Source of the DNA: Patescibacteria group bacterium
GTDB lineage: Bacteria > Patescibacteriota > Patescibacteriia > UBA10025 > JAHIVO01
Direction: 5' to 3'
Assembly (NCBI GenBank): GCA_028718605.1
Contig: JAQULM010000002.1
Span: forward strand, 129,776 to 193,775
Length of the DNA: 64,000 nt
Below are positions 54,098-64,000 of the stretch, one piece after another. A program made the translations under genes and the position numbers. Each line of letters opens with the position of its first letter. Positions within the stretch are counted from its first letter, which is position 1. Below the pieces are notes generated by a model. It was given only the letters and a program-made list of their open reading frames with translations, was not told where the DNA came from and made no database searches.

Positions 54098-56617
54098 TTA
54101 GGAATCTTGCGAGGAAAGATCGCCCAAATCATGGCCTCCCGCCGCCGGTTGGGCTGGTTTCTGTTCCGGCACCGCACCTTTGCGCGTTTGCTTCGGGACA
54201 GACCGCCTACGATCCTGCCGTCCAGTTTCCCGTTTTTTCGGCATTCTGCCTTTTTCTGGCAGCGCCGCTTCGGCCGCTGCTGGTTCCTGCCCTTTTCCCC
54301 GAATTTCTGAAGCACCTCCGGAAACACCCTCGTCAACCGCTTCGAGCGTGATCACCGTGCCCTTTCCGGGAAGCGTCGGCGCTGCAGCCGCTTCTTTTGG
54401 TTTGAGCTCAACCTTCAATCGAATCAACCCTTGCCGCCTACCGACGGTAATCGGGCGGCTTTTAAACGTCTCGTATCCGTTCTTCACGGCGACGAGGTAG
54501 TATGAACCAGGGGCTACGAGTGCAGTGAACTGGCCACGGCTATTCGTCACGCGAGTACCCAGAAGCGTGCTCTTCTCTGCATTATAAATCCTGACGACTG
54601 CCATAGAAATCGGCTCGCCAGTTTCAGCGTCCTGCGTTACGCCCCACGACCGTTCGAGGATCCCGCCGATGAGATATTTAATGAAAATCAGCGCCGTATA
54701 CAAACTTAATATGGCATAATTGGCAATCACAGGATCGAGTACGAGCGCAAGCCAACTCAATACAGTGCCAGTAATCAACAGTGGCGTACTGACTCGCTCA
54801 AGTATAAACCCGATGCGATTCAGGATGCGCAGCCATCGCAACCGTGACTCTGGCACGGCTTCGGTATCCGGGTCTATCGGGATATTAATATTGAGCGTAC
54901 CTGCATCTTTCTCGCTGACCGTAAACGTATCCCCCCGGTAAATATTTTCATACTGGCTGATAGCTGCTGTTTTTAAAATATGTGACGGAAAAATATACCC
55001 GGGACGCACCACGGTCACGTAATACTCCCCCGGCTCAACCAAAAAGCCGAATCGGCCCTGCGCGTCGGTGATCTGGCTCTCCCGGAGTTTATTGAATTCG
55101 CGGGAAAAAATTCTCACAATCGCACGGCGGATTGGCCGGCCTGTCGTGCTGTCGAATACCGATCCCCACGACCGCTTGCGCTTGCCAAAGGCGACCGGCG
55201 CGAGCCACAGGTAGCTGAACCTGAAAAATAAATATATAATGTTTATTAACTGGAAAGACGTAATGGTAGTCGCCGTGACACCCGTTGCAACAATAATGGC
55301 GGCGGTCGTTACGGAAGGCTCAACAATCTGGTTCAGGATCGACGTGACGGTCGGGTTATTGCGAATATCGCCAATGGTATTGCCGATGGCATCCGTAATG
55401 GCGCGGATCGGCTTCGGGAGCGCTTCTTCGATTTTATCCAGTATCTTCGCTGCCGGTGGCGCGGTATCGTCATTGGTTTGGGGGGTACTTCCGTCATCGC
55501 CCGGCTGTCCATCCGGCGGAACTGGCGTCGTTGGGGCGCCAATAGTAAATGACTCCGATGCGCTGGTACTATTGCCCGCGAAGTCGTATGCGAGCGCACG
55601 GACAGTATGTTTGCCATCAGCTAATTCGGGGAGTGTATACGGCGTTGTCGCACCGACGTCAACCAGAACAACCGCGAGTCCGTCAACTGATATACCATAG
55701 TGGTGGATGCCGGATGTCGCATCGGTCGTTTCAAAACTGATGCGCGGCGTTTTATTTTGCGTTCGCTTCCCATCAAGGAGGTCGATCGAGAATTCGAGCG
55801 GAGGAGTTCTATCAATCTGGACCTTATAGTGCCCTGCTGGGCCCCAGCCATCCTCATTCTCCGCGCGAACGTGGAAATACCACGTCCCGTCACCCGTTTC
55901 CGTATAGCTTGACGACCGGCCAGTCGTATCGCGAATTGTATCAGGAGTGGTGCTTGCTTGGTCGTCAAATGCGTAGCTGAAACCAGTGACGCCGCTTTGC
56001 TGCGTCCATTCGAATGTACTGTCAGCAACCGCATACCACAGTGCTTGCTCAGGATGCGTCGGAGAGGTGATCGTCGGAGCTACGGGGAGATGCTTCTCCT
56101 CTTCAGGTGGCGGCGGGGGGGGCGGAGGTGGCTCGCCTGGTTCTGAAACTGTATATGTTCCTCCCGCACTGCCAGTGAGTACATTGGTGCCCAATCCGTC
56201 GTTCGCGAGCACGCTCGCTGAACCGATCGTCACATTTGCTGTACCCGCTACTAACGCGTGAAATGTAATAGTGATAATCCCGCCGCCAGAACCGGTATAC
56301 CCTGGATTGGGCACGCCTCCCGCGAATGTTATAGTGCCGCTCGCATTCGAGTACGAAGGCGTGACCGGCCATAATGAAAATACTCCCGCTTGGGAAATGG
56401 CGGTTACCTCGAGAATATCATTAGGGTATGTTACGGTCGCCTGGGCTGAATTGATCGCAACCCCCGCCGTATTGACGCCGACAGAGACATTAAAGCTCCC
56501 GCCAACGGTCGGAGAAGCGGACGACGGTGCGAGATAGAGCGTTGCTGCATGCGCGGCAGCAGGAAACAGTACGCAACATGCAACAATCCAAAGTGCTATG
56601 GAAAAACGCCGTGCCAT
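54098..56617 (-). CDS. Large cell-surface protein: signal peptide, cohesin-like domain, poly-Pro linker, Ig-like domains, TM segment, CarboxypepD_reg/Cna-B-like repeats, basic C-tail
   Basis: Signal peptide MARRFSIALWIVACCVLFPAAAHA. Cohesin-like block ...VTYPNDILEV...FSLWP...ITITFHALVAGTANVTI...LANDGLGT. PPPPPPPPP linker. Repeats GRPIRRAIVRIF / GEPISMAVVRIYN. Confidence 0.65.
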   Translation of the reverse strand: MARRFSIALWIVACCVLFPAAAHAATLYLAPSSASPTVGGSFNVSVGVNTAGVAINSAQATVTYPNDILEVTAISQAGVFSLWPVTPSYSNASGTITFAGGVPNPGYTGSGGGIITITFHALVAGTANVTIGSASVLANDGLGTNVLTGSAGGTYTVSEPGEPPPPPPPPPEEEKHLPVAPTITSPTHPEQALWYAVADSTFEWTQQSGVTGFSYAFDDQASTTPDTIRDTTGRSSSYTETGDGTWYFHVRAENEDGWGPAGHYKVQIDRTPPLEFSIDLLDGKRTQNKTPRISFETTDATSGIHHYGISVDGLAVVLVDVGATTPYTLPELADGKHTVRALAYDFAGNSTSASESFTIGAPTTPVPPDGQPGDDGSTPQTNDDTAPPAAKILDKIEEALPKPIRAITDAIGNTIGDIRNNPTVTSILNQIVEPSVTTAAIIVATGVTATTITSFQLINIIYLFFRFSYLWLAPVAFGKRKRSWGSVFDSTTGRPIRRAIVRIFSREFNKLRESQITDAQGRFGFLVEPGEYYVTVVRPGYIFPSHILKTAAISQYENIYRGDTFTVSEKDAGTLNINIPIDPDTEAVPESRLRWLRILNRIGFILERVSTPLLITGTVLSWLALVLDPVIANYAILSLYTALIFIKYLIGGILERSWGVTQDAETGEPISMAVVRIYNAEKSTLLGTRVTNSRGQFTALVAPGSYYLVAVKNGYETFKSRPITVGRRQGLIRLKVELKPKEAAAAPTLPGKGTVITLEAVDEGVSGGASEIRGKGQEPAAAEAALPEKGRMPKKRETGRQDRRRSVPKQTRKGAVPEQKPAQPAAGGHDLGDLSSQDS

Positions 56618-56626
56618 AGGAATGCG

Positions 56627-57766
56627 CTACCGTTTACGATTTGAGCGGAGCCCAAGCAGCAAAAGCGCTGAGAGCAGCAGTATCGCTGCAAGCGCAAAAA
56701 GTATTTTCGTGCCGTACGCCTGGACTGTACCCCGAGTACTCCGCTGATAGAATTGGTAGGTTGTCGAGTTGCCGGCAACGTCATATGCGACGACGCGGAC
56801 TGTTTGCAAATTATCTGAGCTCTGGAGCACATGGGGAGATACTGCACGCTGGGTTCGGGTGCCGGCTTCGTACACATCGTAGTGGTCAATGCCTGACATC
56901 TTATCGGTCGCCGAAAATACAATAAACGCCTTCCCCCCGTACAGCGTCGGCTCTGCTGATGAAAAAGCGGTAACCGTCCCCGGAGAGGTGCCGTCGATCA
57001 TGACGCGGCGGCTGCCGGCAATCTTCCATTCTTCGCCGGGAAGCTTTTCACGCAGGATAAAGTAATGGACGCCGTCGGCGAGATTTAAAAATGTCACAGT
57101 ACCAACAACGTCTTCACGATCATCATCCGGTATCTCGCTGACTGAATCACTGACGACATAGCTGTATCCTGCACCTGGCGTAGCAGTCCAATTGACCGTG
57201 AAATCACGCTCCCGGTACCACGTCTTCTCTGAAGGGTGCGTGGGCGAAATAATAGAAAACGACGTCGCAGGCGTGATATCAACTATTCCTGAATTCAACG
57301 TCAGCGGAGCTTCGGTCCCAAGTCCATCGTTTAACAGGACGTGTGTCACATCATCTTGAAAACCAATCTCCACCCCGCCAGTTGCGAACGCCTGGAATGT
57401 AATCGTGACAACAATTCCGCCAGAAACGTAGCTGCCGCTCGGGATGCCGCCAATCATGGTGATAACGCCTGCCTCTCGGTCAACCGCCGGCTCCTCAGGC
57501 CAGAGCGTCAAAAATGATCCACCGCGTGATACGCCAATAACCTCCAACATATCTGCCGGATAGGTAACCGCTGCCTCAACAGCATTGATCACCTGCTGAT
57601 CGCTGGATATATGCACGAGAACATCAAAAACCTTACCCTGTTCGAATTTCTTCTCTGCTGCATCCGCAGAAAGTGACGCAGCATCCGCATGATGGGCGAT
57701 GGCAGACACGCCTGCGATGATGCCAGTTACAATGCACACGATGTATAAATATCTCTTCATACGCAT
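56627..57766 (-). CDS. Cohesin-like-domain surface protein (paralogue of the upstream large protein), C-terminal TM anchor
   Basis: Block AVTYPADMLEVIGVSRGGSFLTLWPE...VVTITFQAFATGGVEIGF...LLNDGLGT is shared with 54098..56617. C-terminal LFALAAILLLSALLLLGL followed by RSNRKR. Confidence 0.6.
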   Translation of the reverse strand: MRMKRYLYIVCIVTGIIAGVSAIAHHADAASLSADAAEKKFEQGKVFDVLVHISSDQQVINAVEAAVTYPADMLEVIGVSRGGSFLTLWPEEPAVDREAGVITMIGGIPSGSYVSGGIVVTITFQAFATGGVEIGFQDDVTHVLLNDGLGTEAPLTLNSGIVDITPATSFSIISPTHPSEKTWYRERDFTVNWTATPGAGYSYVVSDSVSEIPDDDREDVVGTVTFLNLADGVHYFILREKLPGEEWKIAGSRRVMIDGTSPGTVTAFSSAEPTLYGGKAFIVFSATDKMSGIDHYDVYEAGTRTQRAVSPHVLQSSDNLQTVRVVAYDVAGNSTTYQFYQRSTRGTVQAYGTKILFALAAILLLSALLLLGLRSNRKR

Positions 57767-57767
57767 A

Positions 57768-58679
57768 TTATCCTGTCCAATAGTACAGCATGATGCTGAA
57801 ATCAATGATGTCGACCGTTCCGTCTTGGTTAATATCGGCACGGGCATTGCTTGGATTTGAAGCATTCCAATAAAACAGCATGATACTAAAATCGATCAAG
57901 TTTACCGCTCCATCGCAATTGATATCACCAGGAACCGCCCCTGCACAAACATCAGGCTCGCCGGTCCCTGTCACATCAAACGACACGGTATCGCTGAACT
58001 CTGACACTGCTTGGGATATCGGTTCGGTTGCCTGTGCTTTTGCTGAATGGGTCCCCTCAACCAAATCATCCGCATTGAAAAGCTGCAGCCACCGGCCATT
58101 GGTATCCGAACTCGCGATATGAACGGCGATTTTCGTCGGATTCGAGCCCGCTCCTGCACCGACTTGCGGGGAGGTCAGCGTCACATTGACTGTGCTTTCG
58201 GGGGCAGTTGTGCCGGAGAGCGTGACGGTTTCACCGGGACCGATGCTTGGCGGAGTCCTCGTAATCGTTGGCCCGAGAAAAATCCCGCTGATTGTTGTTG
58301 TGCTTCCCTTGGAAAGCAGCAGGGTAAAATTCGACACGCGCCCGCGCGTACCATTGACGTCGGTTCCGTATACGCTGAATGTATACGTGCCAGGATCAAC
58401 AATCACCGATACTTCAAACCGCGCCTGGGAATTTGCCGTAATGATTGAAATCGGTGTTCCGTCCTGCGTTATGGTAATGGTTGATCGGGGATATGCGATT
58501 CCGCTGAATACAACGGTCGTATCAGGCTCTTCGATCGGCGGTTTCTCGGGAACCGTCGCCGTGACAGTTACCTGGTAGGAAACCTGGGCAATCGCAAACG
58601 AATATCCCGCGACCACAATGATCAACGGGATAATCGATGCAAAAATGCGCCGAAATATTACATAACTTGATTGCCGCAT
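57768..58679 (-). CDS. Secreted Ig-like repeat protein with C-terminal tandem dockerin-type (EF-hand-like) repeats
   Basis: GDINCDGAVNLIDFSIMLFYW and ADINQDGTVDIIDFSIMLYYW fit the dockerin type I repeat DxNxDGxVNxxD. N-terminal signal/anchor. Confidence 0.65.
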   Translation of the reverse strand: MRQSSYVIFRRIFASIIPLIIVVAGYSFAIAQVSYQVTVTATVPEKPPIEEPDTTVVFSGIAYPRSTITITQDGTPISIITANSQARFEVSVIVDPGTYTFSVYGTDVNGTRGRVSNFTLLLSKGSTTTISGIFLGPTITRTPPSIGPGETVTLSGTTAPESTVNVTLTSPQVGAGAGSNPTKIAVHIASSDTNGRWLQLFNADDLVEGTHSAKAQATEPISQAVSEFSDTVSFDVTGTGEPDVCAGAVPGDINCDGAVNLIDFSIMLFYWNASNPSNARADINQDGTVDIIDFSIMLYYWTG

Positions 58680-58682
58680 GTA

Positions 58683-59684
58683 CTACCCTTTTGATTTCTT
58701 TACAATCCAAGCGTTGTACCTCTTAATTGCGAGAATCAACAGAAGGACGGCGATCACGATCACGATGCCCCAAACGAGAAGTACCCGCCATGGTATGATC
58801 CAATACGATACCGATGCCTGATCGGACACGCTGTCGGAAGTTCCTGCTGTTACTGAAAGTTTCGCGGTATATTTCCCCAAGGCAAAATTATTCTTCTCGT
58901 TGCCGTACTCCTTCCAGAACGCCGTCCAGGCGTTGCCTGCCGTATCCCCGACTTGTCCGCGCTCCCAGACAGCCTCGTAGCGCCGGGTAGAATCGCGGAG
59001 AGTCGCACCGCGGCCTGCATTGAACTCTATCGTATCGCTCACCTTCCCGAACATGTTCGAGACTGCGATCGTTCCCGTCGGCCTCAGGTGGACATTACCC
59101 GTGTTCTTGAACCGGGCAAAAAACTGCACCGGAGGACGATTGAGCACATGTTTGCTACCGACGACATTGAACTCGGCAATCGAACCTTGCTCGCTGACAT
59201 CGCCGGCAACTTTCGCTAAAAGGAGTGTCCCGACTTTTGACGAAATCTTGATCTGGCCTGCTTCGGGAGGGGTTGATGTAAAGAATAGGGACGCATAGTG
59301 GCCGCCCGGATCTGCATCGGACGGTGTCGAAATTGTCACCGGAACCTCATATCGCTCATTCGGAGCGATGACAATGGGACCCTTTTCGACAGAAACCCAG
59401 CTGCTCAAACCAACCTGCTCAGCATTAAAATCAAATGTCGGCTGGCCTGTCTCCCCCTGGGCTGTAAAATTCCGCGCTTCAGTATACAGCTGAAGGGTAT
59501 TGGCGGTCTCATTGAACAACTTAACGATCGTCTGGGATGTCTGTCCCGGTGTCAGAGAAATTTCGAGCGACGGCGGTATGAGCGTAATCGCATGCGCAGG
59601 ATAGGCGAATACGATGCTGCCCACTGCCACGATGAGTGCACAGAACGCTATACTGCAGATAAATTGTCGAGCAGACTTAACCAT
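58683..59684 (-). CDS. DUF916-like cell-surface protein (signal peptide, Ig/chaperone-like beta domain, C-terminal TM plus basic tail)
   Basis: ITLIPPSLEISLTPGQTSQTIVKLFNET pattern. C-terminal helix WGIVIVIAVLLLILAI followed by KRYNAWIVKKSKG. Confidence 0.5.
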   Translation of the reverse strand: MVKSARQFICSIAFCALIVAVGSIVFAYPAHAITLIPPSLEISLTPGQTSQTIVKLFNETANTLQLYTEARNFTAQGETGQPTFDFNAEQVGLSSWVSVEKGPIVIAPNERYEVPVTISTPSDADPGGHYASLFFTSTPPEAGQIKISSKVGTLLLAKVAGDVSEQGSIAEFNVVGSKHVLNRPPVQFFARFKNTGNVHLRPTGTIAVSNMFGKVSDTIEFNAGRGATLRDSTRRYEAVWERGQVGDTAGNAWTAFWKEYGNEKNNFALGKYTAKLSVTAGTSDSVSDQASVSYWIIPWRVLLVWGIVIVIAVLLLILAIKRYNAWIVKKSKG

Positions 59685-59721
59685 AGCTCGTTAATTTTAT
59701 CACCGATGGTAAATGGGGAGT

Positions 59722-60648
59722 TTATTTAGCCGAAACCTCTGGTGCTTTAGTTCGAGCGTCCCCTTTTCGCATGAGCAGAATGGCAACGACAATAAGCACG
59801 ACAAGAACAACCGCAATAATCACGATTCCCATGGTCGAAATAACCATGAAATTTGCGCTCGCGGTCTCCGTTACGGTTCCCGCGGTTATCGTGACCTTCG
59901 CAGTATACGAACCGAATGCGTTCCCGAGGTCCTTCCATGTACCAACGGCATACTCACGGGAATACCCCGGCAGTACCGCCGACTGATCCTCGTTTATCTT
60001 GAACGTCTTAACTGTCTTGCCAAACATGTTAGTAATCATTACGGTACCCATCGGCTTTAGATGGACATCCCCGGTATTCTCAATCAGTATCGGATCGAAA
60101 ACGATTGGGCCTGACGTATACGTCGACTTCTCGTCTTTTGTCGCAAATTTTGCGATCTCGGCGCTCTCCGTGTAGTCTCCGGTTACTGTCGCGAGGAACG
60201 GGATTCCAACGGATGACTGGATCGTCACCTGGCCCGCAACTTGCTTTTCGCCGAAATTGAATACAACGCCTGCATAGTGGCCACCCGCTTTTGCAGTTGC
60301 TGGCACGGCAAATGTCACGGCCACCGCCTGGGTCTCATCCTTCTGAAGCGTAAAGGTACTCTCAGTAATCGTCATCCATGTAGCAATATCCGTCGGTGTC
60401 CCGGTGATATTGTAGAGAGGTTCGCCGCTCGTCTCGTCTTTTGGCGTGAAATTAACCGCCTTCGCCGTCACCTCCACTGCCTGCGGCATATCATTGGTGA
60501 CGTCAATCATCGCGGTTTTTTCCTCGCCAGGCTTCAGGGTAATCTCGCGGATAGCCGGCGTGATTTCCAGCGCGTCCATTCGGCTGGGGATTAAGAGCAC
60601 CGCAAAGAACAGGGTAGCTCCGAGTAAAAATGTCACTTTCTTTACCAT
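59722..60648 (-). CDS. DUF916-like cell-surface protein (paralogue of 58683..59684)
   Basis: LEITPAIREITLKPGEEKTAMIDVTND pattern; C-terminal TM helix followed by RKGDARTKAPEVSAK. Confidence 0.5.
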   Translation of the reverse strand: MVKKVTFLLGATLFFAVLLIPSRMDALEITPAIREITLKPGEEKTAMIDVTNDMPQAVEVTAKAVNFTPKDETSGEPLYNITGTPTDIATWMTITESTFTLQKDETQAVAVTFAVPATAKAGGHYAGVVFNFGEKQVAGQVTIQSSVGIPFLATVTGDYTESAEIAKFATKDEKSTYTSGPIVFDPILIENTGDVHLKPMGTVMITNMFGKTVKTFKINEDQSAVLPGYSREYAVGTWKDLGNAFGSYTAKVTITAGTVTETASANFMVISTMGIVIIAVVLVVLIVVAILLMRKGDARTKAPEVSAK

Positions 60649-60756
60649 AGTCGTGTTATGTTAACCTTATTTTCTACCCTCCCTCCTGTCGTCCAATGGC
60701 GGCTTCATCGCGCTCCGATTGCGAATCTGCCGGGGGGAGTACCCGTAAAATCTTTT

Positions 60757-61839
60757 TTAAAACGTGGCGGTCGCAATGTACGTTATGCTCGTCGTGTAAT
60801 CGCCCGCTTCAGTACTGCCTGAAATGTTGGCGATGTAGTACAGGTCAACCGTTTCGGTCGATGTCGGGCCGGTTTCCGAAACGAGCGTCGTTGTCGTCGA
60901 AGCAGCGAAGCTATAATTATCACTCGCGTAATCGTACGCTGAAGTGATTGTCGCATCGCCGGTTGTCGATGCGGCGATAGCAAACTGCTCGGTCGTCGGT
61001 GTGCCGTCTCCATCACCAGCAATCGTCGCCGGGGTAATAGTGCCCCCGGTACCCGTCAGGGTCGCCCCATAGTAGGTGACAACATAGCCATTGTCGGCGT
61101 TCGTTGATACTTGCAGTTCGTGTGCACCGCTGCCAACCGCCTGCTGAACTGCGGTACCGGCGCCGTCTGCGGTCGCCCATCGCGCTGCTGTTGCGCTCAG
61201 CGATCCAAACCCGATCGACGTATCATTGATTGAAAACGTGATCGTCGGATCGACGGTCGCAGCTACCGCGACATCATCCTCGGTCAAAATCCGTACTGCA
61301 AGCGTTCCGGTATCGCCAAAAACGCCGGCGAGATCAATGGTCACTGCGCCTGCCGCCGGGTTCGTGAGCTGGGCATTGCCGGCTACACCAGCTGTTGCAT
61401 TCAAACCTATCTGGATTTGTACGCAGCGATCCGCGGTAATTTCACCTGCCGCAGCATCGGTCGGAGGCGTCAGCGTAAGAACGCCGTCTGCAAAAGCGGC
61501 GCCCCAGGTGGCAGCGTCCGCCGCAGCTGCTAACGTTTTGTCAGTCCATGCACCGTCGCACACATTGTCATCATCAACCGCGAGGTCAATGTCGGTATAG
61601 TCAACGCTCCCGGTAGTAAATGATGCCAAATCGAGAGTGATTGTGTCTGTCGAAGCTTGAACGCCAGTCGGTGTCACGAAAATAATTTCATGATTTGCCA
61701 CGGCTGTTTCTTCGACCGAACTCAGCGTGTCTTTTATGTTTCCCAACGAATCCGCATATGCTGGCAACGCAGGAACGCTGAAAGCGACGGCCATAAAAAG
61801 AGCGAACAATACGATTGCTATCCGCTTTAATTTCACCAT
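60757..61839 (-). CDS. Secreted Thr/Ala/Gly-rich protein with a conserved ~170-aa C-terminal domain ending ...ITYIATATF
   Basis: Signal peptide MVKLKRIAIVLFALFMAVAFSVPALPAYA. The C-terminal domain is about 75% identical to the C-terminus of 61996..63993. Confidence 0.55.
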   Translation of the reverse strand: MVKLKRIAIVLFALFMAVAFSVPALPAYADSLGNIKDTLSSVEETAVANHEIIFVTPTGVQASTDTITLDLASFTTGSVDYTDIDLAVDDDNVCDGAWTDKTLAAAADAATWGAAFADGVLTLTPPTDAAAGEITADRCVQIQIGLNATAGVAGNAQLTNPAAGAVTIDLAGVFGDTGTLAVRILTEDDVAVAATVDPTITFSINDTSIGFGSLSATAARWATADGAGTAVQQAVGSGAHELQVSTNADNGYVVTYYGATLTGTGGTITPATIAGDGDGTPTTEQFAIAASTTGDATITSAYDYASDNYSFAASTTTTLVSETGPTSTETVDLYYIANISGSTEAGDYTTSITYIATATF

Positions 61840-61945
61840 ATATTCATGGTTACGTATTAATTTATATATTAAAATTTATTATAGCCGAGCTTTACTGTCC
61901 TGCCGTCCCACTGCCGAGGCGAACCTAGCTCTCTCGGAGCATTTC

Positions 61946-61974
61946 CTGCATATACACTATAGCATATTTTTCCG
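61946..61974 (-). promoter_or_regulatory. Promoter TTGACT-17-TATAGT (minus strand) in the AT-rich spacer upstream of 60757..61839
   Basis: Hexamers read on the reverse complement. A TATAAT box is also present nearer the gene. Confidence 0.5.
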
Positions 61975-61995
61975 CCAAAGTCAAAAGGTTTTCCA

Positions 61996-63993
61996 CTAGA
62001 ACGATGCCGTGGCAATATATGTTATCGCGGTCGCGTATGAACCTGCCTCAGTCTGGCCCGAGATGTTCGCTATGTAGTAAATATCGATCGTTTCGGTGCT
62101 CGTCGTCCCGCTTTCAGAGGCGATTGTCGTGGTTGTATCTGCTACAAAACTGTAATTATCAGATGAATACTGGTACGCTGCTGGAATCGTCGCGTCGCCG
62201 GTTGTCGAAGCGGCAATAGCAAACTGTTCCGTATTCTGCGTGCCATCTCCGTCGCCCGCGATGGTTGCTGGCTCAATAGTGCCCGTATCACCGCTCAGTG
62301 TTGAACCATAGTATGAAATCACGTACCCATTCTGAGCGTTTGACGAGAAAGCGAGCTCGTGGGCACCGCTGCCGGCTGCTGGCCGGCTACTGGTGCCATT
62401 TTCGTCAGCTGTCGCCCATCGCGCTGTTGATGCCGACAGGCTCCCAAAGCCGATGGAAGTGTCCGAAATGGTAAATGTCAGCGAATTCAGGAACCAGCAA
62501 TCATTATTGGTCGAATCGCGGTTGGTACCGTCTGACGCGTCAATATCGGGTGGCTGGTCGCATGCGTACGAATCGCGCACGTCAGTGTTCGACACGGACC
62601 GCGTGCCAGCAACATTGATTTTCCACTGCGTGCCGGTCGATGACGAACGCAAGTACACCCGCGTACCCGTTGCCTGCCCGTCGAAATCGATATTTTGGAA
62701 TGTATACGTAGCCCCCGCCTTGAATAAGAGCTGGGAATTCGCAGTTGCAGCGGTAAGTGTGTTTTGGGTTTCCGCATTAGCCCCAAGCGACACATCGGGA
62801 TTCGAGGCTCCTGCATTCGTTACCGTAAGATTATAGAAGCGGTCAGATGCGCCTGTCATCTGTCCATCTAATGTCTGCCCACTCGTACCATCAACGGTCA
62901 GCGTGCCTGTCCCAGCCGTGAAATCGCCGTTATTCGTCCAGTTGCCACTGAGCGTGAATGTGGCAGTTGATGATGCTTGCAGCAAACCTTTCGAGGTGAT
63001 GGCAACAGACGCAGTATCGAGCACGCGGTCATTGGTGTCGTTGTCGACCGTCGTTTTATTGCTGTCGCTGGCTTTGCCGATCGTTAATGTCCCGTTCGAT
63101 TTAATCTGGCCTGAGCCGCCTGTAGCAAACGTAACTGTCCGGTCAGACGCTGATGAGTTTTCGAACGAGAGGTTTTCAAACACCCAGTCATTGGACCCTG
63201 ATGTCGTGCCGAAATTCTCAGCCGCAGCAACGCGCTGCAGGAACGTGCCGCCAGTGCGGGTAATCGTGCCTGCGCCCCTGACCGTGCCGTTGACCGTCAC
63301 GTTGTTCGTACCCGAGAACGTGCCGTTGGTCATTACCAAATCATTGGTAATCGTCATCGCCGCCGAATTCGACCAGCCGCCGCTCGCCCCGTTAAATTCA
63401 ACGTCATAGAACGAGGACGTGTTCGGAGCGATGGTATTTCCGCTGTCAGTCGCATCAAATATCACCGAACCGGACTGTGCCGTAAAGATATCGCTGTTGG
63501 ACCAATTGCCGCCTACAGTGATCGCGTTATTCTCGCCACTCTTCGCGTCGAGCACGCCACCCGTAATCGTGACATTATTATCGACATCGACAGGGTCCTC
63601 CACCTCAACAGTAAGGGTATACGTGCCTCCGCCATCGTCAACGGTCAGGTTATAGAGAGAACCGGTTCCGGCGGTAATAAGGTCGTTGGTAATATCGGTC
63701 ACCGTCCCGGGCATGGTGAATTTCACTGTTGAATTGCCATGGGTGAACGTACCGCCGCTCTGCAGGTCAAAATCGTCATCCGTATCGATTTCCGTGAGGT
63801 CTTGCTCGCAATCAGGGCCCAATTCGCAGTCAGTGGCGTCCAGTGTACCGCCATTCTTAATCTTGACGCCGCCGATGCCGATATCGAGGTCATACCCGTC
63901 AGTCTCTAAAATATCTCCATTATTGATGCTCAGAGTCTTAGCAACCATGTCGGAATCCAGGTTGGTCGTATCAGGCGAGGTGCCGATCTCCAC
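61996..63993 (-). CDS. Large secreted Thr/Gly/Asn-rich beta-solenoid-like protein, 5' end probably beyond the window; shares the C-terminal domain ...ITYIATASF
   Basis: ORF runs to within 7 nt of the window edge with no signal peptide at the apparent start. Repetitive G-T-x-T/N-x-T composition. Confidence 0.5.
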   Translation of the reverse strand: MEIGTSPDTTNLDSDMVAKTLSINNGDILETDGYDLDIGIGGVKIKNGGTLDATDCELGPDCEQDLTEIDTDDDFDLQSGGTFTHGNSTVKFTMPGTVTDITNDLITAGTGSLYNLTVDDGGGTYTLTVEVEDPVDVDNNVTITGGVLDAKSGENNAITVGGNWSNSDIFTAQSGSVIFDATDSGNTIAPNTSSFYDVEFNGASGGWSNSAAMTITNDLVMTNGTFSGTNNVTVNGTVRGAGTITRTGGTFLQRVAAAENFGTTSGSNDWVFENLSFENSSASDRTVTFATGGSGQIKSNGTLTIGKASDSNKTTVDNDTNDRVLDTASVAITSKGLLQASSTATFTLSGNWTNNGDFTAGTGTLTVDGTSGQTLDGQMTGASDRFYNLTVTNAGASNPDVSLGANAETQNTLTAATANSQLLFKAGATYTFQNIDFDGQATGTRVYLRSSSTGTQWKINVAGTRSVSNTDVRDSYACDQPPDIDASDGTNRDSTNNDCWFLNSLTFTISDTSIGFGSLSASTARWATADENGTSSRPAAGSGAHELAFSSNAQNGYVISYYGSTLSGDTGTIEPATIAGDGDGTQNTEQFAIAASTTGDATIPAAYQYSSDNYSFVADTTTTIASESGTTSTETIDIYYIANISGQTEAGSYATAITYIATASF

Positions 63994-64000
63994 GTCGCCG

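What the first reader, a model, noticed from the sequence alone, without database searches (positions are those of the whole stretch)
54098..63993. 10-kb single-strand operon of cohesin-, dockerin- and DUF916-like surface proteins
- Seven consecutive minus-strand genes, separated by 1-110 nt, all encode signal-peptide proteins with C-terminal TM anchors or basic tails.
- Two carry a cohesin-like beta-sandwich block (…VTYP(N/A)D(I/M)LEV…SLWP…ITITF…LNDGLGT).
- One ends in two canonical dockerin repeats (DINCDGAVNLIDF… and DINQDGTVDIIDF…).
- Two are DUF916-like proteins with a chaperone/Ig fold.
- Two are Thr/Gly-rich proteins sharing a C-terminal domain.

Cohesin and dockerin partners encoded side by side suggest a self-assembling, cellulosome-like scaffold on the cell surface. 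It could serve for attachment, for example to a host cell if the organism is an episymbiont. The large protein also has a poly-Pro stalk and CarboxypepD_reg/Cna-B-like repeats.
Basis: partly seen in the sequence, partly recalled or inferred. Interest (0 to 1): 0.6.

Follow-up and report, generated by a model that had tools for sequence, protein, structure and literature searches.

The report
Pilus operon with cohesin-dockerin anchor
This is a surface-filament (Pam-type pilus) gene cluster of an ultrasmall CPR bacterium, carrying a giant tip adhesin and apparently tied to the cell membrane through a cohesin-dockerin joint, a part so far known mainly from cellulose-degrading enzyme complexes.

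Summary
The seven minus-strand ORFs are real. The seventh is only the last 2 kb of a gene called at 8,379 codons in the source MAG, a Patescibacteria bacterium (GCA_028711455.1).

The cluster is a variant of the Pam pilus system described in a 2026 preprint, not a cellulosome-like scaffold.
- **Pilin domain:** the two Thr/Gly-rich proteins share the Pam pilin C-terminal domain (NCBIfam NF058581).
- **Chaperones:** the two "DUF916-like" proteins are membrane-anchored and resemble WxLIP and PapD. A homologue sits in a canonical PamT-pilin-pilin-chaperone-PamR operon.
- **Cohesin and dockerin:** both calls hold. g2 passes the Pfam Cohesin cut-off, and g3 passes Dockerin_1 with both Ca loops intact.

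What is new is how the parts fit. The dockerin protein g3 has no pilin domain. Its conserved, disordered mature N-terminus copies the pilins' donor-strand motif. The giant protein has the acceptor domain but no donor motif.

My inferred order is: giant tip adhesin, pilin shaft, g3 terminator, then dockerin-cohesin binding to the membrane proteins g2 and g1. These would replace the membrane-anchored terminator PamR.

The gene order recurs in 17 further genomes, 12 of them with all seven genes in the same order or cut only by a contig end. Assembly, strand donation and cohesin-dockerin binding are inferred, not shown.

The parts
61996..64000 (-). 3' end (last 667 codons) of a giant gene called at 8,379 codons: the proposed tip adhesin. 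It is Thr/Gly/Ser/Asn-rich with degenerate ~100-110-residue repeats.
   Evidence: There is no stop upstream of 63993. The gene is called at 8,379 aa in GCA_028711455.1 and at >=7,109 aa on a Logan contig. No Pfam family is found in its last 3,280 aa. Its homologues carry names such as 'beta strand repeat-containing protein'.
61999..62484 (-). Pam pilin C-terminal (acceptor) domain of the giant protein. It is preceded by a conserved Cys pair (SYAC...NDCW) and has no donor-strand motif.
   Evidence: NF058581 scores 50.7 bits, E 1.9e-13. The domain is 73% identical to the g6 C-terminal domain. The best donor-motif score anywhere in g7 is 5.1 bits. The giant-protein tails of the 11 other loci that hold one end the same way.
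61956..61984 (-). Promoter-like site (TTGACT-17-TATAGT, with TG) in the 156-nt gap between the giant gene and the pilin gene.
   Evidence: The number of such sites in the region is not above the shuffled expectation, so this is only a lead.
60757..61839 (-). g6, a 360-aa Pam-type pilin and the proposed shaft subunit: signal peptide, N-terminal domain, linker donor strand, C-terminal acceptor domain.
   Evidence: NF058581 scores 56.8 bits against a cut-off of 55, E 2.5e-15. g6 aligns end to end with the pilins of a canonical Pam operon (A3). Orthologues score up to 100 bits. The signal-like segment is at residues 7-25.
61243..61278 (-). Linker donor-strand motif of g6 (DDVAVAATVDPT, residues 188-199).
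   Evidence: It is conserved as D-[DQS]-phi-x-phi-[ST]-A-x-V-[DP]-P in 13 pilins. V192, A194 and V196 are nearly invariant or invariant in A3, which includes the canonical pilins.
59722..60648 (-). g5, a 308-aa membrane-anchored chaperone resembling PapD and WxLIP (PamC/D-like).
   Evidence: The AF2 model has pLDDT 92.4, two beta-sandwich domains and a TM helix at 272-298. Foldseek top hits are WxLIP 9i1y (E 4.7e-11), CsuC, CfaA, Caf1M, PapD and FimC. Homologue P0030 (E 7.6e-20) occupies the chaperone slot of a canonical Pam operon.
58683..59684 (-). g4, a 333-aa second membrane-anchored chaperone and paralogue of g5.
   Evidence: g4 is 31% identical to g5, E 1e-44. Its TM segment is at 302-320. 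It is conserved next to the g5 orthologue in the 12 closely related loci and in L024.
57768..58679 (-). g3, a 303-aa proposed terminator/adaptor: signal peptide, free N-terminal donor-like strand, two Ig/FnIII-like domains, type I dockerin. It has no pilin acceptor domain and no TM anchor.
   Evidence: Pfam gives Dockerin_1 at 42 bits and Big_6. The AF2 model has pLDDT 89.1. Foldseek gives generic tandem Ig/FnIII matches, with RbmA among them. g3 is the most conserved gene of the cassette (57-73% identity).
58536..58586 (-). Mature N-terminus of g3 (QVSYQVTVTATVPEKPP, residues 32-48), a donor-strand-like motif.
   Evidence: It is the best non-pilin match (16.9 bits; next best 10.2) to a scoring matrix built from pilin linkers, among 58,149 positions in the window. 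It is also the best non-pilin match in 10 of 14 loci in a leave-one-locus-out test. A41 and V43 are invariant in 52 family members. The segment is disordered in the model, pLDDT 45-58. It is the only part of g3 that aligns with PamR.
57771..57932 (-). Type I dockerin of g3, with two Ca-binding loops (DINCDGAVNLID and DINQDGTVDIID).
   Evidence: The best solved matches are type I dockerins 5nrm_B (E 2.6e-5) and 2y3n_B. D252, N254, D256, D263, D282 and D293 are invariant in 52 sequences.
56627..57760 (-). g2, a 377-aa proposed membrane anchor: signal peptide, cohesin (about 57347-57655), two Ig-like domains, C-terminal TM and basic tail.
   Evidence: Pfam Cohesin scores 30.0 bits against 24.1. 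The start codon follows the source gene calls. The TM segment is at 353-371. A profile of these cohesins best matches cellulosomal anchoring scaffoldin B, 4ums_A, E 2.4e-4.
54098..56617 (-). g1, an 839-aa second proposed anchor: signal peptide, divergent cohesin (about 56153-56503), poly-Pro, two Ig-like domains, then a polytopic membrane region with two CarboxypepD_reg domains and a charged tail.
   Evidence: g1 is 34% identical to g2 over ~330 residues. CarboxypepD_reg appears twice (E 2.4e-17) and Big_13 once. There is no Cohesin hit on its own, but orthologues score 33-36 bits. Hydrophobic segments lie at 609-654, with a weaker one around 436-480.

Best explanation
The locus is a Pam-type pilus operon of a Patescibacteria (CPR) bacterium. 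Pam pili are filaments built without an usher, by chaperone-assisted donor-strand exchange on the outer face of the cytoplasmic membrane.

**Proposed mechanism**
1. All parts are exported by Sec.
2. The two TM-anchored chaperones, g4 and g5, hold the incomplete Ig-like C-terminal domain of newly exported subunits. They resemble PapD and WxLIP.
3. The giant protein (called at 8,379 aa) has this acceptor domain but no donor strand, so it can only sit at the distal tip, where its long beta-strand-repeat region acts as the adhesin.
4. The pilin g6 has both a linker donor strand and an acceptor domain, so it polymerises beneath the tip.
5. g3 has a donor-like strand at its mature N-terminus but no acceptor domain, so it caps the proximal end and stops growth.
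6. The C-terminal dockerin of g3 binds the cohesin of the membrane proteins g2 and/or g1, tethering the fibre to the cell. Together, g3 plus g2/g1 do the job assigned to the single protein PamR (N-terminal strand, two FnIII domains, TM helix) in the canonical system.

**Shown here**
- Domain identities, folds and TM anchors.
- Homology to the components of a canonical Pam operon.
- The distribution of the donor motif among the three kinds of subunit.
- Conservation of the gene order.

**Inferred**
- Filament formation and the order of subunits.
- Strand donation by g3.
- Cohesin-dockerin binding, and which cohesin is the partner.
- Host attachment as the function.
For: **Pilin domain**
- NF058581 (CPR_Pam_pilin_C) hits g6 at 56.8 bits (cut-off 55) and g7 at 50.7 bits.
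- Orthologous pilins score up to 100 bits, and giant-protein tails score 42-47 bits.
- g6 aligns along its full length with the pilins of a canonical operon.

**Chaperones**
- The g5 model has pLDDT 92.4, with two beta-sandwich domains and a TM helix.
- Foldseek top hits are WxLIP and the chaperone-usher chaperones CsuC, CfaA, Caf1M, PapD and FimC.
- Homologue P0030 (E 7.6e-20) lies between two Pam pilins and PamR, after PamT, next to ATP synthase genes. PamR scores 421.7 bits against a cut-off of 300, and PamT 318.8 against 240.
- This gene content and neighbourhood match the preprint's description (10.64898/2026.03.03.709456).

**Donor-strand logic**
- The pilin linker motif is conserved in 13 pilins.
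- The mature N-terminus of g3 is the best non-pilin match in the window: 16.9 bits against 10.2 for the next best, over 58,149 positions.
- It is also the best non-pilin match in 10 of 14 loci in a leave-one-locus-out test.
- The segment holds 2 of the 18 invariant columns in 52 family members, yet is disordered in a confident model.
- It is the only part of g3 that aligns with PamR.
- The giant-protein tails and PamT lack the motif.
- The chaperones carry a similar V-x-V-T-F-x-T-P strand.

**Anchor**
- Cohesin and dockerin pass the Pfam cut-offs and match cellulosomal modules in the PDB.
- The window holds exactly one dockerin, and no Pfam hit is on record for the whole giant protein.
- Every cohesin protein in distant loci has a TM segment near its C-terminus followed by a basic or charged cytoplasmic tail.
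- No PamR homologue is present.

**Synteny**
- Twelve other species-level genomes share the seven-gene order; in two of them a contig end cuts off the giant gene or the giant and pilin genes. L024 has it too.
- Four more distant loci keep pilin, chaperone, g3 and 2-3 cohesin proteins. Three of them are preceded by a giant protein that ends in the pilin domain; L022 has two large flanking proteins that do not.
Against: - No experiment or complex prediction supports any of the contacts.
- The structure tools accepted only single chains, so g6-g6, g6-g3, chaperone-subunit and dockerin-cohesin interfaces were not modelled.
- The g6 structure was not predicted, so the truncated-Ig acceptor groove rests on sequence homology alone.
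- The donor-motif match is short (7-12 residues). It weakens in the most distant loci: rank 4 in L023, and not in the top 4 in L022. In the canonical locus L005, the PamR strand is not in the top 4.
- The Ig domains of g3 show no specific similarity to PamR (hhalign probability 5.6%; generic Foldseek hits).
- g7 scores below the NF058581 cut-off.
- The number of g6 copies per fibre is unknown; it could be one, giving an anchored adhesin rather than a long pilus.
- Two cohesins for one dockerin is unexplained.
- The membrane topology of g1 is uncertain. The positive-inside rule would place its CarboxypepD_reg domains in the cytoplasm, which is unusual.
- The Pam model itself comes from a preprint, in which only PamA/PamB filaments are experimentally resolved.
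Confidence: 0.68

Rival explanations
1. Static WxL-like surface display, with no filament. As proposed for Firmicute WxL clusters, the two TM-anchored two-Ig proteins (g4, g5) would be permanent holders rather than transient chaperones. Each would insert a beta-hairpin into the C-terminal domain of the giant protein or of g6 and keep it on the membrane. The cohesin-dockerin trio would be a separate surface complex that happens to be co-transcribed.
For: - The best solved match of g5 is WxLIP of E. faecium, including an entry bound to a 'long WxL' protein (9i1y and 9i25, E ~1e-10).
- The best Pfam hit is WxLIP_PGBD.
- WxL clusters likewise hold a small protein, a large protein with the same C-terminal domain, and a TM-anchored two-Ig partner predicted to insert a hairpin (PMC10599100).
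- Two chaperone-like genes and two proteins bearing the C-terminal domain give a 1:1 count.
Against: - g6 keeps the linker donor strand that is conserved in the canonical Pam pilins of L005. According to the preprint, the M. amalyticus pilins form filaments resolved by cryo-EM.
- The distant loci L021, L023 and L025 have one chaperone for two or three proteins bearing the domain, including the giant protein.
- The donor-like N-terminus of g3 and its strict adjacency to the chaperones argue that the dockerin protein belongs to the same assembly line.
- The Pfam WxL domain does not hit g6 or g7.
Confidence: 0.14
2. Cellulosome-like scaffold. Cohesin-dockerin pairing would be the main assembly principle, building a multi-protein surface complex for attachment. 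The other proteins would be cargo or accessory surface proteins.
For: - Cohesin and dockerin are genuine and adjacent.
- The tandem-Ig plus dockerin body of g3 is a widely reused module: 122 of the 150 best representatives end in a dockerin, many with other N-terminal regions. This suggests a broader cohesin-based display system in these bacteria.
- Distant loci carry up to three cohesin proteins.
Against: - Each protein carries a single cohesin. The window holds one dockerin and no enzymes or carbohydrate-binding modules.
- This view does not explain the Pam pilin domains, the chaperones, or the way the donor motif is distributed.
Confidence: 0.08
3. The pilus is as in the best explanation, but the cohesin-dockerin pair acts in trans or laterally, for example by bundling fibres, linking neighbouring cells, or recruiting g3 as a regulator. 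It would not anchor the base. Anchoring would instead come from the TM chaperones that remain bound to the last subunit.
For: - The preprint notes that Pam pili detach easily, and no dedicated anchor has been demonstrated.
- Two or three cohesins per dockerin fit a multivalent or cross-linking role.
Against: - g3 lacks an acceptor domain and has the donor motif at its very N-terminus, which is the arrangement of a terminator.
- All cohesin proteins are membrane-anchored, with the cohesin at the far end from the membrane.
- g3 takes the operon position that PamR holds in the canonical locus.
Confidence: 0.1

Closest known systems
Pam pilus system of Ca. Mycosynbacter amalyticus and other CPR bacteria (Troman et al., bioRxiv 10.64898/2026.03.03.709456; NCBIfam NF058578, NF058579 and NF058581)
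   Same: - The pilin has an N-terminal domain, a linker donor strand and the Pam C-terminal domain.
- The chaperones resemble PapD/FimC and have a C-terminal TM helix.
- There is no usher.
- A tip subunit lacks the donor strand, and a terminator donates an N-terminal strand.
- It occurs in CPR bacteria.
   Different: - There is no PamR. The terminator has a dockerin instead of a TM helix, and separate cohesin-bearing membrane proteins are added.
- The tip is a giant protein (1,346 to 8,379 aa across loci) rather than the 240-aa single-domain PamT.
- There is a single pilin gene rather than PamA, PamB and PamE.
- No ATP synthase genes are seen nearby, and the lineage is near Kerfeldbacteria/Parcubacteria rather than Saccharimonadia or Microgenomatia.
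- The preprint does not mention cohesin, dockerin or WxL.
Chaperone-usher pili of Gram-negative bacteria (Pap, Fim, Csu, CFA/I, Caf1)
   Same: - The chaperone has the same two-domain fold (Foldseek E 1e-9 to 1e-7).
- The logic is the same: a tip adhesin with an acceptor pilin domain, shaft subunits that donate and accept, and a terminator (as PapH) that cannot be extended.
   Different: - There is no outer membrane and no usher.
- The chaperones are tethered to the membrane.
- The donor strand is an internal linker rather than an N-terminal extension, except in g3.
- Anchoring would be through cohesin-dockerin rather than through the usher.
WxL / WxLIP (DUF916-DUF3324-TM) clusters of Firmicutes (PMC10599100; PDB 9i1y, 9i25)
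   Same: - WxLIP is the closest solved structure to g5.
- The partner is a TM-anchored two-Ig protein predicted to insert a hairpin.
- The cluster holds one small and one large protein that share a C-terminal domain.
   Different: - g6 and g7 give no Pfam WxL hit, and DUF916 scores below the cut-off.
- WxL proteins are described as peptidoglycan-bound surface proteins, not filaments.
- WxL clusters have no cohesin or dockerin.
Cellulosomal type I cohesin-dockerin pairs, especially anchoring scaffoldins (for example ScaB cohesin 4UMS; dockerins 5NRM, 2Y3N)
   Same: - The cohesin beta-sandwich and the duplicated Ca-binding dockerin are both present.
- The cohesin sits on a cell-bound protein and the dockerin on the partner to be tethered.
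   Different: - There are no enzymes, no carbohydrate-binding module and no multi-cohesin scaffoldin.
- Anchoring is by TM helix rather than by SLH domains or sortase.
- The cargo is a pilus terminator.

Membership tests
Pam pilus system (CPR) | Pilin subunit with the Pam pilin C-terminal domain (NF058581) | tested here: met
   g6 scores 56.8 bits against a cut-off of 55 (E 2.5e-15). g7 scores 50.7 bits (E 1.9e-13), below the cut-off. Orthologues score 57-100 bits.
Pam pilus system (CPR) | Conserved linker strand between the N- and C-terminal domains, donated to the next subunit | tested here: inconclusive
   The motif is present and conserved, and it aligns with the linker of canonical pilins. 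Donation itself was not modelled.
Pam pilus system (CPR) | PapD/FimC-like chaperone with a C-terminal TM helix (PamC/PamD) | tested here: met
   TM segments are. A homologue sits in a canonical operon. No NCBIfam chaperone model matched.
Pam pilus system (CPR) | PamT tip subunit (NF058579 equivalog) | tested here: not met
   g6 scores 23.7 bits against a cut-off of 240, and g7 gives no hit. The giant protein is a functional analogue only: it has the acceptor domain and no donor motif.
Pam pilus system (CPR) | PamR terminator/anchor (NF058578: N-terminal strand, two FnIII domains, C-terminal TM) | tested here: not met
   None of the seven proteins hits this model. g3 shares only the N-terminal strand plus the P-x-K-PP motif with PamR and has a dockerin instead of a TM helix.
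Pam pilus system (CPR) | Assembly into an extracellular helical filament | not testable with these tools
   This needs microscopy or proteomics.
Pam pilus system (CPR) | Neighbourhood with ATP synthase genes (reported as common, not defining) | tested here: not met
   The neighbours are glutamate racemase, iPGM, a HAD hydrolase and PGM. No ATP synthase was found among the 20 other ORFs scanned. It is present beside the canonical locus L005.
Cohesin-dockerin system / cellulosome | Cohesin domain (PF00963) | tested here: met
   g2 scores 30.0 bits against 24.1. g1 gives no hit on its own, but it is 34% identical to g2 and its orthologues score 33-36 bits. The best PDB match of the cohesin profile is a scaffoldin cohesin.
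Cohesin-dockerin system / cellulosome | Dockerin with two Ca-binding loop-helix repeats (PF00404) | tested here: met
   The domain scores 42 bits against 22.9. The loop residues are invariant in 52 homologues. The best PDB matches are type I dockerins.
Cohesin-dockerin system / cellulosome | Multi-cohesin scaffoldin that recruits several dockerin-bearing enzymes | tested here: not met
   Each protein has one cohesin. The window holds one dockerin and no catalytic domains or carbohydrate-binding modules.
Cohesin-dockerin system / cellulosome | Physical, Ca-dependent binding between the encoded cohesin and dockerin | not testable with these tools
Chaperone-usher pili | Outer-membrane usher | tested here: not met
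   No usher family appears among the Pfam or NCBIfam hits of the seven proteins.
Chaperone-usher pili | Two-domain PapD-like chaperone | tested here: met
   Foldseek matches CsuC, CfaA, Caf1M, PapD, FaeE, FimC and EcpB at E 1e-9 to 3e-7, with target TM-scores of 0.45-0.54. This is at fold level only.
WxL cluster | WxLIP (DUF916 + DUF3324 + TM) | tested here: inconclusive
   PF06030 scores 19-21 bits, below the 27.3 cut-off. WxLIP 9i1y is nevertheless the top structural match, and a TM helix is present.
WxL cluster | Proteins with a C-terminal WxL domain | tested here: not met
   g6 and g7 give no Pfam WxL hit at E<=1. A pilin profile found no WxL chain in the PDB. A structural comparison was not done.

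The most novel reading that the evidence does not exclude
A cohesin-dockerin joint forms part of a pilus. A donor-strand-exchange fibre carrying a giant tip adhesin (up to 8,379 aa) would be capped by a subunit whose dockerin plugs into cohesins on membrane proteins. That gives a non-covalent, possibly releasable or exchangeable anchor in bacteria that have neither an outer-membrane usher nor a sortase. This would be the first cohesin-dockerin pair with a role in pilus biogenesis. Together with the WxLIP-like chaperones, it would link Pam pili, Firmicute WxL clusters and chaperone-usher pili as one ancient family of chaperone-assisted strand-exchange systems.
Probability: 0.45. Interest if true: 0.75.

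Novelty: new variant of a known kind. Interest (0 to 1): 0.62.

Why it matters
**Why the question is open**
- Attachment to a host cell is the central, poorly understood step in the life of CPR/Patescibacteria.
- Pam pili were recognised only in 2026, and how they are anchored and what sits at their tip are open points in that work.

**What this locus suggests**
- **The tip:** a giant adhesin that ends in the pilin domain.
- **The anchor:** a dockerin-bearing terminator bound to cohesin-bearing membrane proteins.
- **The range:** the system extends to Kerfeldbacteria- and Parcubacteria-type lineages.

**What can be tested**
- Dockerin-cohesin and strand-pilin binding can be tested with recombinant fragments, so an uncultured organism is not an obstacle.

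**Wider implication**
- It widens the known uses of cohesin-dockerin modules beyond enzyme complexes.
- It points to a possible evolutionary link between Pam pili and the WxL/WxLIP surface systems of Firmicutes.

Tried and rejected
**Searches that found nothing**
- Sequence searches of the PDB with g6, g5 and a 13-pilin profile found nothing meaningful. PamA and PamB are therefore either not in the PDB copy or not detectable this way.
- Pfam found no family in the last 3,280 residues of the giant protein.
- A homologue search with the g7 tail aimed to recover the full 8,379-aa sequence. It returned only fragments of up to 1,155 aa, so the N-terminus and signal peptide of the giant protein were never seen.

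I spent the last prediction on g3, so the pilin fold is untested.
It worked with the closer alignment.

**Ideas tested and dropped**
- g3 as a PamR homologue with its anchor swapped: hhalign and BLASTP align only the signal peptide and the strand, and Foldseek gives generic tandem-Ig hits. I claim only a functional analogy.
- Promoter and terminator scans give counts no higher than shuffled sequence.
- A mobile-element or phage origin: the flanks are housekeeping genes such as RpoD, DnaG, GroEL, UvrA/C, RNase J and SHMT, and GC content is even across the window.
- The 2023 giant-gene preprint on Omnitrophota has no bearing on this locus.

Full report
**1. What is in the sequence**

Positions 54098-64000 carry seven consecutive minus-strand ORFs. 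I number them g1 (54098-56617) to g7 (61996 to the window end).
- The gaps between them are 9, 7, 3, 37, 108 and 156 nt. This assumes g2 starts at 57760, as called in the source records.
- g7 has no stop codon upstream of 63993, so it runs off the window.
- An exact-sequence look-up of g6 places the locus in NCBI assembly GCA_028711455.1, contig JAQTSE010000001.1. There g7 is the end of a gene called at 8,379 codons. A Logan contig carries at least 7,109 codons of the same gene.
- NCBI labels the MAG 'Patescibacteria group bacterium'.
- The rest of the window is ordinary chromosome: RpoD, DnaG, PPDK, GroEL, UvrA, UvrC, RNase J, SHMT and three tRNAs, with even GC content.
- g1 to g6 each begin with a signal-like hydrophobic segment. 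g2, g4 and g5 end in a TM segment, and g1 has internal ones. g3 and g6 have none.

**2.

Most hold.

|---|---|---|---|
| g2 | cohesin | Passes Pfam Cohesin: 30.0 bits against a cut-off of 24.1 | 3 |
| g1 | cohesin | No hit on its own; 34% identical to g2 over ~330 residues; 3 of 6 orthologues score 33-36 bits | 16, 67 |
| g1 + g2 + orthologues | cohesin | A profile of 18 such modules best matches a cellulosomal anchoring-scaffoldin cohesin (4UMS, E 2.4e-4) | 69 |
| g3 | dockerin | Passes Dockerin_1 (42 bits against 22.9); best solved matches are type I dockerins (5NRM, 2Y3N) | 3, 70 |
| g4, g5 | DUF916-like | Paralogues; best Pfam hit is DUF916/WxLIP_PGBD, below cut-off | 3, 17 |
| g6, g7 | shared C-terminal domain | 162 residues at 73% identity | 18 |

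- The Ca-loop residues of the g3 dockerin are invariant in 52 homologues. Its two loops are the only such motifs in the window.
- A confident model of g5 (pLDDT 92.4) shows two beta-sandwich domains and a C-terminal TM helix.
- The best solved matches of g5 are WxLIP of Enterococcus faecium (9i1y, E 4.7e-11), then CsuC, CfaA, Caf1M, PapD, FaeE and FimC.

**3.

NCBIfam identifies the shared C-terminal domain as CPR_Pam_pilin_C (NF058581). g6 scores 56.8 bits against a cut-off of 55, and g7 scores 50.7 bits. The family comes from a 2026 preprint (10.64898/2026.03.03.709456), which reports the following:
- Cryo-EM structures of two pilins of Ca. Mycosynbacter amalyticus. Each has an N-terminal beta-sandwich, a linker strand donated to the next subunit, and a truncated Ig-like C-terminal domain.
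- PapD/FimC-like chaperones (PamC/D) with a C-terminal TM helix, and no usher.
- A single-domain tip subunit, PamT, which lacks the linker strand.
- PamR (N-terminal strand, two FnIII domains, TM helix), proposed to terminate and anchor the fibre.

**4. The link to a canonical Pam operon**

- The g5 family has 37 detectable members.
- One of them, P0030 (E 7.6e-20), lies in a locus next to ATP synthase genes (L005).
- That locus reads PamT (318.8 bits against 240), two Pam pilins, P0030, then PamR (421.7 bits against 300).
- g4 and g5 therefore belong to the Pam chaperone family.
- g6 aligns along its full length with the pilins of that operon. The shared features include the linker (V192, A194, V196), the TNA..GY and GTE.FG motifs, and the terminal Phe.

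**5. Conservation of the gene order**

- A scan of one genome per species found 12 other genomes in which every gene held by the locus follows the same order. That order is giant protein, pilin, g5-type chaperone, g4-type chaperone, dockerin protein, cohesin-TM protein, cohesin-CarboxypepD_reg protein.
- Two of these loci start at a contig end: L010 lacks the giant gene, and L016 lacks both the giant and the pilin genes.
- One of the 12 is a closed Ca. Kerfeldbacteria chromosome, CP181398.1.
- The g3 family is larger, with 257 members.
- Four more distant members (40-47% identity) sit in loci with 1-2 pilins, one chaperone, the dockerin protein and 2-3 cohesin proteins. Three of these loci are preceded by a giant protein that ends in the pilin domain. 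The fourth, L022, has two large flanking proteins that do not.
- L024, from Parcubacteria GW2011_GWA2_48_9 (g3 55% identical), keeps the full seven-gene order. Its tip protein is only 1,346 aa.
- Pilins and giant-protein tails of these loci all hit NF058581 (42-100 bits).
- Every cohesin protein in the distant loci has a TM segment near its C-terminus, followed by a basic or charged cytoplasmic tail.
- None of these loci matched my PamR query or was flagged as PamR. The canonical locus L005 and a CPR3 locus (L019) have no cohesin or dockerin.

**6. The donor-strand pattern**

The pilin linker reads D-[DQS]-phi-x-phi-[ST]-A-x-V-[DP]-P in 13 pilins. I built a scoring matrix from these sites and scanned all 58,149 positions in six-frame ORFs of the window.

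| Rank | Site | Score |
|---|---|---|
| 1 | g6 linker itself | 34.3 bits |
| 2 | mature N-terminus of g3 (YQVTVTATVPEK) | 16.9 bits |
| 3 | next best site | 10.2 bits |

- In a leave-one-locus-out test, the g3 site was the best non-pilin hit in 10 of 14 loci. These were 9 of the 10 close loci tested, plus L021.
- It ranked third overall in L007 and fourth in L023, and was absent from the top four in L022.
- In g3 this segment directly follows an A-x-A-type signal-peptide cleavage site.
- It holds 2 of the 18 invariant columns in 52 family members (A41 and V43).
- It is nevertheless disordered in a confident model (pLDDT 45-58 against more than 95 for the Ig domains). A strand that becomes ordered only in a complex would behave this way.
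- It is the only part of g3 that aligns with PamR: VTVTATVPEKPP against IGVTGTLPSKPP.
- The giant-protein tails go straight from a conserved Cys pair into the C-terminal domain without the motif, as does PamT.
- The chaperones carry a similar strand, V-x-V-T-F-x-T-P, just before an invariant GGHY. It scores weakly with the same matrix.

The cassette thus encodes one acceptor-only protein, one donor-plus-acceptor protein and one donor-only protein. This matches the tip, shaft and terminator of chaperone-usher pili.

**7. Mechanism**

I propose a Pam-type fibre. The giant protein is the distal adhesin, g6 is the shaft, and g4/g5 are membrane-bound chaperones. g3 is a cap that cannot be extended, and its dockerin binds the cohesin of g2 and/or g1 at the membrane.
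- g3 plus a cohesin protein then equals a PamR split into two polypeptides.
- g3 occupies the operon position of PamR.
- g3 is the most conserved gene (57-73% identity) and the pilin the least (25-52%). This fits an internal joint against an exposed shaft.

I could not model g6. I could not see the first ~5,100 residues of the giant protein.

Three points remain unexplained:
- why there are two cohesins for one dockerin;
- the topology and role of the C-terminal half of g1, which holds two [TM-RSWG-CarboxypepD_reg] units;
- how many g6 copies a fibre holds.

**8. Comparison with known systems, and novelty**

- **Pam membership:** the locus meets the criteria for pilin and chaperone, but fails the PamT and PamR equivalogs.
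- **Cellulosome:** it is not one, since it has single cohesins, one dockerin and no enzymes.
- **Chaperone-usher pili:** it shares the chaperone fold and the subunit logic, but has no usher.
- **WxL clusters:** its chaperones are structurally closest to WxLIP. WxL clusters have a parallel layout of a small and a large protein sharing a C-terminal domain, plus a TM-anchored two-Ig partner that inserts a hairpin (PMC10599100).
- **Prior mention:** the Pam preprint does not mention cohesin, dockerin or WxL. A literature search for dockerin, cohesin and CPR pili found nothing relevant.

I therefore class the locus as a new variant of a recently described kind. Confidence is high for 'Pam-type pilus operon' and moderate for the cohesin-dockerin anchor and the giant tip.

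Noticed in passing
window 61996-64000, continuing beyond the window (L002 1-9844): The seventh ORF is the tail of a gene called at 8,379 codons. Tip-protein size varies widely between related loci: 1,346 aa in L024, 6,710 aa in L025, at least 3,654 aa in L021 and at least 3,870 aa in L004 (all as called). The visible 3,280 residues are 47% Thr, Gly, Ser and Asn, with degenerate ~100-110-residue repeats.
   Followed up: partly
g5 model (window 59722-60648) against PDB 9i1y and 9i25: The closest solved structure to the Pam-type chaperone is WxLIP of Enterococcus faecium, including an entry bound to a 'long WxL' protein. WxL clusters have the same layout of a small and a large protein sharing a C-terminal domain, plus a TM-anchored two-Ig partner. 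A Pam-WxL relationship is not mentioned in the Pam preprint. I could not test it for the pilin domain.
   Followed up: partly
L023 15844-16533, L024 13417-14025, L025 15266-15967: In three distant loci a signal peptidase I gene (Peptidase_S26) lies just downstream of the cassette, directly in L025 and after a glycosyltransferase gene in L023 and L024. HisRS, HIT and YqeY follow, and then a very large T4SS_pilin/Big_5 protein. Signal-peptide cleavage would expose the donor-like N-terminus of g3. The window's own locus lacks this neighbour.
   Followed up: no
P0206-P0347: The tandem-Ig body of g3 has 962 relatives among the 50%-identity representatives. Of the best 150, 122 end in a dockerin and only one in a TM segment. 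About 90 are longer proteins with other, mostly unannotated N-terminal regions in place of the donor strand. This suggests a wider cohesin-based display system in these bacteria.
   Followed up: partly
L020 9212-10753 (WOR-3 MAG); P0036 (Methanoregulaceae archaeon MAG): Proteins of the chaperone family (E 1e-54 to my chaperone profile; E 3.5e-10 to g5) occur in MAGs labelled as non-CPR, one of them archaeal. The chaperone family may therefore not be restricted to CPR, or these contigs are mis-binned.
   Followed up: no
L007, L009, L010, L012, L016 (record titles): Five MAGs that carry this Patescibacteria-type cassette are titled 'uncultured Gammaproteobacteria bacterium' in their TPA records. 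These are probably placeholder or wrong taxonomic labels.
   Followed up: no
window 54098-55300 (g1 residues ~436-839): The C-terminal half of g1 holds two repeats of [hydrophobic segment(s) - RSWG - CarboxypepD_reg domain], then a long charged tail. By the positive-inside rule the beta-sandwich domains would be cytoplasmic, which is odd for this fold. The module is conserved in the closely related loci and in L024, but is absent from the extra cohesin proteins of L021, L022, L023 and L025.
   Followed up: partly
L004 16494-18300: In one related genome the cassette lies next to type IV pilus genes (an N_methyl prepilin and PilM). The two filament systems are therefore neighbours there.
   Followed up: no
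A3, A2 and A4 alignments: Rates of change differ sharply within the cassette. Identity to the window's protein is 25-52% for pilin orthologues, 41-57% for the g5 chaperone and 57-73% for the dockerin protein g3.
   Followed up: partly
window 61956-61984 (-): A good sigma-70-like promoter match (10 of 12, with an extended -10 TG) lies between the giant gene and the pilin gene. It could allow the pilin to be expressed separately and more strongly. The number of promoter matches in the region is not above chance.
   Followed up: no
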